A stretch of 64,000 nt of DNA from Eledone cirrhosa. Its lineage: Eukaryota. The notes below the pieces were generated by a model that saw only the letters and a program-made list of their open reading frames with translations, ran no database searches and was not told the DNA's origin. The position numbers and the translations under genes are program-made. The stretch covers positions 68,262,001 to 68,326,000 of the forward strand of contig OZ024744.1 in assembly GCA_964016885.1 (NCBI GenBank), written 5' to 3'. Below, one piece after another: positions 32,153 through 53,362 of this stretch; the first letter of the stretch is position 1; each line of letters starts with the position of its first letter.

Positions 32153-32461
32153 ATATAAGCATGTATACGTACATACATGTGTATACAGACGTAGAGTAGT
32201 ATGTATATATATACATAGATGCTCACATATATATATATTTACGTATGGGTTTACCGAACATTTATTATAATGCACGGTTTGTTTGACGATAGCTAATAAG
32301 CTTGAAACTAGTACATCGTTCCTTTGTCAGTGTTGAACAAATGAGCAACGAAGGTTGCTAAACACTGTACGGCTTAATTCGGGCTGTTTGTTTACAAACA
32401 CACCGAGCATTATAATAAATGTTCGGTAAACCCATACGTACATATTTATATGTGTGCATGA

Positions 32462-32539
<78 letters not shown>

Positions 32540-33040
32540 TACTGTACGTCTGTATACATATATGTATGTACGTATACATGCTTATATGTAAGTAACAGTC
32601 GTACTAAGAGTGAGAAATGAAATTTCGTTTCGTTTTATCCATTTATCGTTTTCGGTATGCCCGGCCGACTAACTCACGCGATATGCAAATTAAGCTGCTC
32701 AGTCGTTTATAAGCATAAGGAAAGTATATACTTTCAGGCGTTCAATCATCTGGCAGGAAGGTATACGATGCTGACGATAGCTAATAAGCTTGAAACTAGT
32801 ACATCGTTCCTTTGTCAGTGTTGAACAAAAGGGCAACGATGGTTGCTAAACACTGTACGGCTTAATTCGGGATGTTTGTTTACAAACACACCGAGCATTA
32901 TAATAAATGTTAGGTGAATCCATACTTACATGTATATATGTGTGCATGTATGTATATATATATATACATACTACTGTACGTCTGTATACATATATGTATG
33001 TACGTATACATGCTTATATTTAAGTAACAGCCGTACTAAG
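32153..33040 (+). mobile_element. Non-coding retrozyme-like element: 5' inversion plus two tandem hammerheads, 488 nt between predicted cleavage sites
   Basis: 32284-32608 is repeated at 32772-33040, and 32153-32283 is inverted. A third copy lies at 52850-53362. Confidence 0.8.
32765..32807 (+). ncRNA. Type I hammerhead motif
   Basis: ACGATG-CTGACGA-tAGCT aata AGCTt-GAA-ACTAGT-A^CATCGT, with a perfect 6-bp stem I. Confidence 0.88.
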
Positions 33041-48460: not shown

Positions 48461-48540
48461 TAGATAGATAGATAGAAAAATAAATAGATAGATAGATAGA
48501 TAATAAATGTAATCTGAGTTTTTAGAATATTAATAATAAC

Positions 48541-48941
48541 ATTGGATTCGTTTTTAATTATGCAAACAGTCTCTTTTAAGCCATGTCAATAGAATGTGTC
48601 CCTCATTCTTGCTCTTGTTTTGGCATGTAAACAGAACTGCATGTAAGCTATTAGCTAGCTGATCAGTGGATCTGCTTATATACAAATCTGACTGACCAGC
48701 CAGTCTTCTAATATGCAAATCAGGCCGATCAGTCACTGTATATTTTAGAAATTATCATATATTTTCACTAGCTCTGACAGTTGGCAGGTGAACAATAAAC
48801 TGTACTGATGAAGGGTAATCACCCAGAAACATTAGTGTCTGCAGTTCTATTTACATGCCAACAAAAGAGCAAGAATGAGAGGTTCATTCTGCAGACATGG
48901 CTTAAAAGAGGCTGTTTGCATAATTGCAAACGAATCGAATT
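48541..48941. repeat. Fold-back element (~100-bp arms) containing a hammerhead
   Basis: 48541-48641 is approximately the reverse complement of 48840-48941. Confidence 0.85.
48798..48846 (+). ncRNA. Type I hammerhead motif
   Basis: AACTGTA-CTGATGA-aGGGT aatc ACCCa-GAA-ACATTAGTGT-C^TGCAGTT, with a 7-bp stem I and a GUC site. Confidence 0.88.
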
Positions 48942-48944
48942 TTG

Positions 48945-49130
48945 TGGATTGGCAGTATCGGTAGAGGGTTGGACGCCATGCTTTCCAGCATAGTTACGTC
49001 CTTTTATGATCTGAGTTCAAATCCCGCTGAGCTTAACTTTGCCTTTCATCCTTACGGGGTCGATAAAATAAGGTACCAGTAATGTACTGGGTAATTTCTG
49101 GCCTTGTGCCAAAAGTAGAAACAATTATTA
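48945..49130 (+). mobile_element. tRNA-derived SINE (MetaSINE-like)
   Basis: B-box and core. Confidence 0.85.
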
Positions 49131-49201
49131 ATATTTGAAAAACTCAGATGACATTTGTTGTATTCAGCCATGTAGAGCTATAACTTTTTTTTTAGTAATT
49201 A

Positions 49202-52849: not shown

Positions 52850-53362
52850 ACGGAAAAAATGAAACGAAATTTCATTTTCCACTCTTAGTACGGCTGTTAC
52901 TTAAATATAAGTATGTACACGTTCATACATATATGTATACAGACGTACAGTAGTATGTATATATATACATACATGCACACATATATATACATGTACGTAT
53001 GGATTCACCGAACATTTATTATAATGCTCGGTGTGTTTGTAAACAAACATCCCGTATTAAGCCGTAGTGTCCAGCAACCATCGTTGCTCGTTTGTTCAAC
53101 ACTGACAAAGGAACGCTGTACTAGTTTCAAGTTTATTAGCTATCGTCAGCAACGTCAGCGTTCCTTTGTCAGTGTTGAACAAACGAGCAACGATGGTTGC
53201 TGGACACTACGGCTTAATACGGGATGTTTGTTTACAAACAAACCGAGCATTATAATAAATGTTCGGTGAATCCATACGTACATATATATATGTGTGCATA
53301 TATGTATATATACATACTACTGTACATCTGTATACATATATGTATGTACGTGTACATACTTA
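52850..53362. mobile_element. Fold-back copy of the 32153-33040 retrozyme-like family
   Basis: Minus-sense arm 52850-53155 is joined to plus-sense arm 53156-53362. Confidence 0.85.
53113..53155 (-). ncRNA. Type I hammerhead motif
   Basis: ACGTTG-CTGACGA-tAGCT aata AACTt-GAA-ACTAGT-A^CAGCGT. Confidence 0.8.

What the first reader, a model, noticed from the sequence alone, without database searches (positions are those of the whole stretch)
48541..48941. Second, unrelated family whose inverted arm begins exactly at GUC^
The hammerhead at 48798-48846 would cleave after C48839. The inverted arm 48541-48641 matches from T48840 onward and stops at that base. This repeats the pattern at 53156 independently. 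The match also coincides with stem I complementarity, which could have guided snap-back priming.
Basis: partly seen in the sequence, partly recalled or inferred. Interest (0 to 1): 0.75.

Follow-up and report, generated by a model that had tools for sequence, protein, structure and literature searches.

The report
Hammerhead retroelement with inverted partial copy
This is a head-to-head double insertion of a very abundant non-coding retroelement that carries a hammerhead-ribozyme motif; its inverted arm stops at the base where the ribozyme would cut, which genome-wide is the upstream edge of a hot zone for copy ends and so likely, but not certainly, reflects copying of self-cleaved RNA.

Summary
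Arms 48538-48641 and 48840-48943 are a 104-nt, 86% inverted repeat. It ends exactly at T48840, the base after the GUC of a hammerhead-like motif (48798-48846).

The locus is one compound insertion of a ~450-nt non-coding repeat with thousands of copies. Partial tandem copies, inverted 5'-truncated copies and microsatellite targets match the published architecture of Penelope-like elements and animal retrozymes.

- The GUC^ position is the commonest single end, at 19 of 157. Two positions 7-8 nt inside the arm are nearly as common (18 and 16).
- Against a null that already has an edge at the site, the excess at GUC^ is weak (P about 0.04).
- The robust signal is a step. Ends are 3.7 times denser per base in the 11 nt after the site than in the 15 nt before it (P about 4e-15).

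This fits reverse transcription running off ribozyme-cleaved RNA, followed by ragged joining. It does not prove cleavage. Rfam does not recognise the motif, no RNA data were available, and a related second family gave a mixed result. Stem-I snap-back priming does not explain this locus. The element is a new member of a known kind.

The parts
48462..48503 (.). (GATA)n / AT-rich microsatellite flanking the outer end of the inverted copy. It is the likely target sequence.
   Evidence: Read. In more than half of the 30 loci, by eye, the copy's tail abuts (TA)n or (CA)n runs.
48490..48641 (-). Inverted, 5'-truncated copy of the repeat (profile positions 291-443). Its inner end at 48641 is the complement of the first base after the predicted cleavage site.
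   Evidence: nhmmer hit 48641->48490, hmm 291-443, E 4.3e-38; inverted repeat.
48642..48654 (.). 13-nt filler between the two copies. 48639-48648 (GCATGTAAGC) repeats 48623-48632 (GCATGTAAAC), matching at 9 of 10 positions. I read this as a short template jump, which is an inference.
   Evidence: Read.
48653..48943 (+). Forward copy of the repeat, 5'-truncated at unit position ~105. It contains the hammerhead motif and the right arm.
   Evidence: nhmmer hmm 105-398, E 8.9e-102; 90-93% identity to 39 other genomic copies.
48671..48749 (+). Internal long hairpin of the unit (profile positions ~67-193, self-complementary).
   Evidence: Weak miRNA-like hairpin hits on both strands. Opposite-strand self-hits at hmm 67-193 occur in most of the 30 loci.
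48798..48846 (+). Type-I hammerhead-like motif: helix I 48798-48804 / 48840-48846; CUGAUGA 48805-48811; helix II 48813-48824 closed by an A:A mismatch (48812, 48825); GAAA 48826-48829; helix III ACA-UUAG-UGU 48829-48838; predicted cut after C48839. Helix I extends with mismatches to about 48780 / 48862.
   Evidence: Pattern match; fold with the long helix I and helix II hairpin, -29.4 kcal/mol, z -3.9; family alignment. No Rfam hit.
48840..48943 (+). Right arm: the part of the forward copy from the predicted cleavage site onward.
48944..49123 (+). ~180-nt tRNA-like SINE piece lying inside the right arm. It is absent from most copies of the repeat.
   Evidence: In most of the 30 loci, 48943 runs straight on to 49124. 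The piece is present at about the same place in L006, L012, L015 and L016, and occurs alone elsewhere. ARAGORN calls no tRNA.
49124..49201 (+). 3' tail of the forward copy (profile positions 397-448) followed by a T-run.
   Evidence: nhmmer hmm 397-448 at 49124-49176; sequence.

Best explanation
The feature is a compound, head-to-head insertion of an abundant ~450-nt non-coding retroelement that carries a hammerhead-like motif. The inverted arm likely ends at GUC^ because reverse transcription ran off the 5' end of an RNA that the ribozyme had cut.

Shown:
- The repeat family, its unit, and the motif in every aligned copy.
- The architecture of partial tandem copies plus inverted 5'-truncated copies next to microsatellites.
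- A genome-wide step in copy ends at the predicted cleavage site.

Inferred:
1. Unit-plus transcripts fold the hammerhead and some are cut, giving an RNA that begins at U48840-equivalent.
2. A Penelope-like element's reverse transcriptase/endonuclease opens both strands of a microsatellite target and primes cDNA from both ends, so two copies form in opposite orientation.
3. The left cDNA reached the cleaved 5' end, made a short template jump (the 10-nt GCATGTAA.C duplication), and was joined to the right cDNA, which had stopped at unit position ~105.
4. Elsewhere the same ends are trimmed or joined by microhomology over the next 10-20 nt, which gives a hot zone rather than a single breakpoint.
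For: Family. At least 3167 first-look candidates, and 40 of 40 scored copies are 90-100% identical. The unit is 449 profile positions. No ORF of 62 aa or more.

Architecture.
- 14 of 30 main copies are preceded by the tail of an upstream unit, and at least 9 of 30 have an adjacent inverted partial copy.
- Tails abut (TA)n or (CA)n.
- This matches the description of Penelope-like insertions: partial tandems, an inverted 5'-truncated copy at the 5' end, and microsatellite bias (PMC8557442, passages read).
- It also matches the finding that a Penelope-like protein cuts and extends both DNA strands (PMC11167929, passages).
- GIY-YIG endonuclease matches are very abundant in this genome: 10,595 candidates, and 150 of 150 scored lie over Pfam's cut-off.

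Motif.
- The core CUGAUGA / GAAA / GUC and three helices are family-wide.
- Helix III, ACAUUAGUGU, is a quasi-palindrome of the kind described for minimal dimeric hammerheads (PMC4209133).
- The related family keeps the core while helices I and II differ in sequence yet still pair. In that family 36 of 38 copies pair at a helix I position that switches between G:U (23), U:G (9), A:U (3) and G:C (1). Its cleavage triplet varies only between GUA and GUU.
- A mismatch at the base of helix II is on record for an axolotl retrozyme hammerhead reported to self-cleave weakly (PMC7229834).

Breakpoints.
- Three pattern samples gave 78, 75 and 78 unique truncated copies.
- Their union over 276-301 is 157 ends, with 115 in 291-301 and 42 in 276-290 (ratio 3.7 per base, P 3.9e-15).
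- Position 291 is the mode, 19 of 157.
- In the deep-anchor sample, 291 holds 8 of the 71 ends spread over 60 positions (P 2.5e-5). Density falls away from it: 2.0 per nt at 292-301, 1.25 at 302-313, 0.83 at 314-325.
- Head-to-head palindromes centred on the TGCA at 291-294 exist, for example L051 and L303.
Against: - No Rfam hammerhead model matches, even on 101 nt at E up to 10.
- Positions 10.1/11.1 are A:A in all copies instead of the usual G:C. Cleavage is untested.
- The excess at exactly 291 is weak against a null that already has an edge there: 19 observed against 12.2 expected, P 0.036.
- In the third sample 291 is not the mode: 6, against 8 each at 298, 299 and 301.
- Several 291 junctions share one junction type and may not be independent.
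- Helix I's 3' strand starts at the cleavage site by definition, so a structure-linked hot zone would have the same upstream edge.
- The second family gave no step, by eye, from the 100 of 168 rows listed. 10 rows end at the site, 7 end one base inside, and 17 end 5-6 nt upstream. Only 6 upstream positions could be assessed.
- For one Penelope-like element, hammerhead mutants inserted normally in vitro and no RNA-seq reads ended at the site (PMC11167929).
- No autonomous partner sharing this tail was found next to 22 endonuclease loci.
Confidence: 0.5

Rival explanations
1. The same compound retroelement insertion, but the ribozyme plays no part. The first ~20 nt after the site are the 3' strand of a long, stable helix I. 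Reverse transcriptase pausing, template switching, or later erosion of palindrome centres there would create a hot zone. This locus's exact end would then be one draw (about 1 in 8) from that zone.
For: - Ends are spread over 291-313 and beyond.
- Positions 299 (18) and 298 (16) are nearly as frequent as 291 (19).
- Many junctions use microhomology such as CAG, CA or TGCA.
- About 60% of truncated ends abut an inverted family piece: 45 of 69 and 43 of 71.
- The region folds strongly (z -3.9).
- The motif fails Rfam.
- Published in vitro work found cleavage dispensable.
Against: - Pausing at a hairpin is expected at its base (about position 313). Instead, density is highest at the top (291) and decays outward with no edge at 313.
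- The drop upstream of 291 is abrupt: 5, 3 and 1 ends at 290, 289 and 288.
- TGCA-centred palindromes need cDNA 3' ends exactly at 291.
Confidence: 0.33
2. After cleavage, the cDNA end snapped back on the stem I complement and primed the inverted arm at this locus.
For: - Stem I is long, about 23 nt with mismatches.
- At some other loci the inverted arm passes into the forward hammerhead through stem I homology, for example L043 at 291/257 and L168 at 298/248.
Against: - Here the inverted arm is followed by 13 nt of filler and then unit position ~105, not by the stem I 5' strand at 233-257.
- The arm carries its own tail and microsatellite end, as expected of a separately primed cDNA.
Confidence: 0.05
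3. A DNA transposon or MITE whose terminal inverted repeats are the two arms.
For: A 104-nt inverted repeat with a 198-nt spacer.
Against: - Most copies are single-orientation, 5'-truncated at variable points, and share one 3' tail.
- The 'spacer' is part of the unit.
- Arm length and partner position vary from locus to locus.
Confidence: 0.02

Closest known systems
Penelope-like element (PLE) insertions with pseudo-LTRs and an inverted 5'-truncated copy, and their non-autonomous derivatives (Craig et al. 2021, PMC8557442)
   Same: Heavy 5' truncation, partial tandems, an inverted truncated copy at the 5' end forming inverted repeats, microsatellite targets, and a hammerhead motif in the repeated part. 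PLE-type endonuclease matches are very abundant in this genome.
   Different: There is no ORF. No autonomous element with this tail was found. The hammerhead has a long helix I and a 3-bp helix III rather than the minimal form.
Animal non-LTR retrozymes (Cervera and de la Pena 2020, PMC7229834; bioRxiv 10.64898/2026.07.22.740005)
   Same: A few-hundred-nt, AT-rich, highly self-paired non-coding unit with a type-I hammerhead, co-occurring with PLEs. A mismatch at the base of helix II is known there (axolotl).
   Different: Copies here are mostly 1 to 1.4 units and dispersed, rather than long tandem arrays. Circular RNA and self-cleavage were not tested. The related family in the window (32280-32950) looks more like a classical tandem retrozyme.
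Ribozyme-defined 5' ends of non-LTR retrotransposons (HDV-like ribozymes of R2 and others). This is recalled; it is cited within PMC4209133.
   Same: [quoted passage not shown]
   Different: A different ribozyme class and a different element class. Here the evidence is only a genomic footprint.
Twin priming in L1 insertions (recalled, not checked in a paper here)
   Same: Two cDNAs primed from the two DNA ends give an inverted segment next to a direct one.
   Different: In L1 the two segments come from one RNA and do not overlap. Here both segments contain the same arm, so two RNAs or a multi-unit RNA are needed.

Membership tests
Hammerhead ribozyme, type I | Conserved core: CUGANGA, GAAA, and a cleavage triplet UH (usually GUH). 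| tested here: met
   48805-48811, 48826-48829 and 48837-48839. The core is present in the main copy of all 30 aligned loci, with scattered point changes.
Hammerhead ribozyme, type I | Three helices around the core, with helix I open. | tested here: met
   Helix I is 7 bp, extendable to about 23. Helix II is 4 bp. Helix III is 3 bp plus a tetraloop, or a 10-bp quasi-palindromic duplex as a dimer (reading; fold shows helices I and II). In the related family, helices I and II have other sequences that still pair.
Hammerhead ribozyme, type I | G10.1-C11.1 pair closing helix II. | tested here: not met
   A:A in all copies, and U:U in the related family. A U:U mismatch at this place is reported in an axolotl hammerhead (PMC7229834), so the feature is usual rather than absolute.
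Hammerhead ribozyme, type I | Score at or above the gathering threshold of an Rfam hammerhead model. | tested here: not met
   No hammerhead hit at gathering on the whole window, nor at E up to 10 on 801 nt or 101 nt.
Hammerhead ribozyme, type I | Site-specific self-cleavage. | not testable with these tools
   No RNA run was listed. The only support is the indirect genomic step at the predicted site.
PLE-mobilised non-autonomous retroelement / non-LTR retrozyme | Non-coding, repeated, few-hundred-nt unit. | tested here: met
PLE-mobilised non-autonomous retroelement / non-LTR retrozyme | Partial tandem (pseudo-LTR) and inverted 5'-truncated arrangements, with an AT-rich or microsatellite target. 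| tested here: met
   14 of 30 with an upstream tail and at least 9 of 30 with an inverted partial copy. Flanks are seen.
PLE-mobilised non-autonomous retroelement / non-LTR retrozyme | Sequence shared with the pseudo-LTR or 3' end of an autonomous PLE in the same genome. | tested here: inconclusive
   22 GIY-YIG loci out of 10,595 candidates were scanned. Family copies appeared only in L196 and L207, and not in a position that links them to the ORF.
PLE-mobilised non-autonomous retroelement / non-LTR retrozyme | Expression as linear and circular RNA. | not testable with these tools
   No RNA holder was listed.

The most novel reading that the evidence does not exclude
The genome itself records hammerhead activity in vivo. 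In this family the ribozyme's cut sets the upstream limit of new copies and of their inverted arms. That means self-cleaved RNAs are real templates for Penelope-type retrotransposition, a role that has been proposed for a decade but was not seen in the one in vitro system studied.
Probability: 0.45. Interest if true: 0.6.

Novelty: new member of a known kind. Interest (0 to 1): 0.4.

Why it matters
What hammerheads do in Penelope-like elements and animal retrozymes is still called unclear (PMC8557442). In the only reconstituted system, cleavage was dispensable and no RNA ends were seen at the site (PMC11167929).

A step in genomic copy ends at the predicted cut is cheap evidence that can be repeated in any genome, and it makes the question testable. 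The next test is to compare families with live and dead ribozymes, then map RNA ends.

I found no such histogram in two literature searches or in the passages read. The term 'cleavage site' is absent from PMC4209133 and from the 2026 preprint. This is not proof that none exists. Otherwise the locus is an ordinary repeat copy.

Tried and rejected
- **Rfam.** No hammerhead hit at gathering or at permissive thresholds. Only weak miRNA-like and other chance hits appeared.
- **RNA evidence.** No RNA holder was listed by the look-up of sequencing runs: 3 runs of unknown kind, kept as contigs. I did not lay them, because contigs cannot show RNA ends.
- **Earlier notes.** None exist for this genome.
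- **First breakpoint scoring.** The log-odds version over-extended copies into TA-rich flanks. I replaced it with a match +1 / mismatch -2 rule. Counts come only.
- **Autonomous partner.** 12 + 10 GIY-YIG loci were scanned with the family profile. There was no linked tail.
- **ARAGORN on the SINE piece.** No tRNA was called.
- **Replication in the second family.** From the 100 of 168 rows listed, I first counted 19 by eye as ending exactly at GUA^C. One search showed a common GUU variant, so 9 of those rows are copies that run past the site. The count fell to 10, with no step, so I do not count this as support.
- **MITE/TIR reading.** Rejected; see the rival explanations.

Full report
**Observation**

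The inverted repeat is real. Arms 48538-48641 and 48840-48943 are 104 nt long, 86% complementary and 198 nt apart. A further pair, 48502-48537 and 49124-49159 (36 nt, 89%), continues the same arms across a ~180-nt insert at 48944-49123.

The repeat stops sharply. Only 1 of the next 8 base pairs is complementary (read).

- CUGAUGA 48805-48811
- GGGU/ACCC helix II 48813-48824
- GAAA 48826-48829
- GUC 48837-48839
- helix I 48798-48804 paired with 48840-48846

The predicted cut is after C48839, and the arm begins at T48840.

The bare sequence pattern is not beyond chance in 64 kb: 1 match against 0.95 expected. No Rfam hammerhead model matches at gathering score or at E up to 10, even on 101 nt.

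**What the locus is**

The window's genome is about 3.0 Gb in 1796 contigs. The 302-nt query found at least 3167 first-look candidates, and all 40 scored were 90-100% identical.

Alignment of 30 loci defines a unit of about 449 profile positions. It contains:
- a self-complementary 5' half (positions ~67-193, the hairpin at 48671-48749)
- the hammerhead motif, with CUGAUGA at 257 and the C of GUC at 290
- an 'arm' from 291 onward
- a tail ending near 448, followed by a T-run

In the window:
- the forward copy covers 48653-48945 (positions 105-398) and 49124-49176 (397-448)
- the inverted copy covers 48641 down to 48490 (positions 291-443)

The 48944-49123 piece is a tRNA-like SINE fragment that most copies lack. 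No ORF of 62 aa or more overlaps the element.

**Architecture**

- 14 of 30 main copies start at profile position 2-3, meaning the tail of an upstream unit precedes them.
- At least 9 of 30 have an adjacent inverted partial copy. L014 and L022 are one segmental duplication.
- Tails commonly abut (TA)n or (CA)n.

This is the arrangement described for Penelope-like elements: strong 5' truncation, partial tandems forming pseudo-LTRs, often an inverted 5'-truncated copy at the 5' end, microsatellite bias, and non-autonomous derivatives (PMC8557442, passages read).

A Penelope-like protein cuts and extends both DNA strands in vitro (PMC11167929, passages). That readily gives head-to-head copies. 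GIY-YIG endonuclease matches are very abundant here: 10,595 candidates, and 150 of 150 scored lie over the cut-off. I did not find the autonomous partner. 22 endonuclease loci carried no linked copy of this tail.

**Is the motif a hammerhead?**

For:
- The core and three helices are shared by the whole family.
- Helix I extends to about 23 nt, and the region folds far better than shuffles (-29.4 kcal/mol, z -3.9).
- Helix III, ACAUUAGUGU, is a quasi-palindrome that could form a 10-bp intermolecular helix with two G:U pairs (my reading). This is the design described for dimeric minimal hammerheads (PMC4209133).

The second family in the window has the same layout with other helix sequences. It occupies 32280-32950 and 52930-53360 and is distantly related by profile (E 5.5e-10). 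Its motif is CUGACGA, U[AGCU-AAUA-AGCU]U, GAAAC, UAGUA^C.
- In 38 of its copies one helix I pair switches between G:U (23), U:G (9), A:U (3) and G:C (1), with 2 non-pairs.
- Its cleavage triplet varies only between GUA and GUU.

Against:
- Positions 10.1/11.1 are A:A here, and U:U in the second family, instead of G:C.
- Rfam does not score the motif.
- A U:U mismatch at the base of helix II is, however, reported for an axolotl retrozyme hammerhead (PMC7229834).

Cleavage itself is untested.

**The breakpoint histogram**

I sampled truncated copies without regard to where they break. Each search pattern required an exact 16-nt anchor inside the arm plus three 'not-C' positions where helix II should be, which excludes full-length copies.

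| Sample | Anchor (profile positions) | Matches (control) | Unique copies from first 100 rows |
|---|---|---|---|
| A | 301-316 | 566 (2) | 78 |
| C | 301-316, G variant | 258 (5) | 78 |
| B | 336-351 | 2529 (0) | 75 |

For each pattern I took the first 100 listed rows, fetched the DNA, and extended each copy from the anchor with a fixed rule.

Results:
- After removing 14 copies shared between samples, 157 unique ends fall in 276-301.
- The most frequent positions are 291:19, 299:18, 298:16, 301:14 and 293:12. Immediately upstream the counts are 290:5, 289:3 and 288:1.
- 115 ends lie in the 11 positions 291-301 and 42 in the 15 positions 276-290. That is 3.7-fold per base (P 3.9e-15).
- The excess at exactly 291 is modest: 19 against 12.2 expected, if true ends were uniform over 291-301 and flanks matched the next base by chance (P 0.036).
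- In sample C, 291 is not the mode.
- In the deep-anchor sample B, 291 holds 8 of 71 ends over 60 positions (P 2.5e-5). Density declines outward: 2.0, 1.25 and 0.83 per nt.
- About 60% of truncated ends abut an inverted family piece.
- Some junction types recur and may be amplified rearrangements rather than independent events.

**Reading**

The cleavage site is an edge, not a unique breakpoint. An RNA 5' end fixed at 291, followed by trimming and microhomology joining, or by later erosion of palindrome centres, predicts three things:
- an abrupt upstream drop
- a maximum at 291 with outward decay
- palindromes centred on the TGCA at 291-294

All three are seen. At the window locus the arm ends at 291 and is followed by a 10-nt near-duplicate of the arm's own sequence (48623-48632 and 48639-48648). 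I read this as a template jump from a template end.

The main rival is a structure-linked hot zone on the helix I 3' strand. By construction it has the same upstream edge. It fits less well because density is highest at the top of the helix rather than at its base.

Stem I-mediated junctions do occur elsewhere (L043, L168).

**Evidence that weakens the reading**

- The second family did not replicate the step. I tallied by eye the 100 of 168 rows listed, and corrected the tally after one search showed a common GUU variant. 10 rows end at the site, 7 end one base inside, and 17 end 5-6 nt upstream. Only 6 upstream positions could be scored.
- Published in vitro work found hammerhead cleavage dispensable, and saw no RNA-seq ends at the site for one element.
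- No RNA data were available here.

**Verdict**

The object is a new member of a known kind: a hammerhead-bearing, Penelope-type non-autonomous retroelement. Its value lies in the genome-wide step at the predicted cut, which makes ribozyme use in retrotransposition testable.

Noticed in passing
window 32280-32950 and 52930-53360: A second hammerhead-bearing repeat family: CUGACGA, U[AGCU-AAUA-AGCU]U, GAAAC, UAGUA^C. There are two direct units at 32.3-32.9 kb and a large palindrome centred near 53137, whose motif lies on the minus strand. An exact 25-mer spanning its cut site has 2945 genomic matches. Its copies are 94-97% alike and often tandem or head-to-head. A helix I pair covaries between G:U and U:G, and the cleavage triplet is GUA or GUU. 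It is distantly related to the studied family.
   Followed up: partly
window 48944-49123; also L004, L005, L011, L012, L016, L020: A ~180-nt tRNA-like SINE piece lies inside the arm. It recurs at nearly the same arm position in L006, L012, L015 and L016 with different 5' ends. Elsewhere it occurs followed by the same tail as the hammerhead repeat. This suggests either a shared 3' tail and mobilising enzyme, or template switching between the two RNAs. ARAGORN calls no tRNA.
   Followed up: partly
profile position 280 of the family (= window 48829); family 2, 5-6 nt upstream of its cut: A secondary pile-up of copy ends. In the studied family, 8 of 157 ends fall at position 280, the outer edge of the helix III quasi-palindrome. 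In family 2, 17 of 100 listed rows end at or just past the centre of the helix III palindrome ACTAGT (by eye). I have no explanation.
   Followed up: no
L114, L123, L290 (and rows): A recurrent variant of the repeat has a ~26-nt internal deletion that removes the hammerhead core and helix II (junction AATGT|GTACAG). It could serve as a natural dead-ribozyme control.
   Followed up: no
L204 (minus strand, ~9198) and L205 (plus strand, ~8986); L198, L203, L207: Near long GIY-YIG ORFs there is a canonical minimal hammerhead motif (CTGATGAG..GGACGAAAC..GTC). There is also another recurrent hammerhead-like motif with a U:U mismatch at the base of helix II (CCTGATGATTTCTAAAGAATGAAAC). Its helix I did not pair convincingly by eye.
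   Followed up: no
L228, ~1800-1845: A micro-tandem triplication of a 14-nt segment spanning the family-2 cut site (GAAACTAGTACATC, three copies).
   Followed up: no
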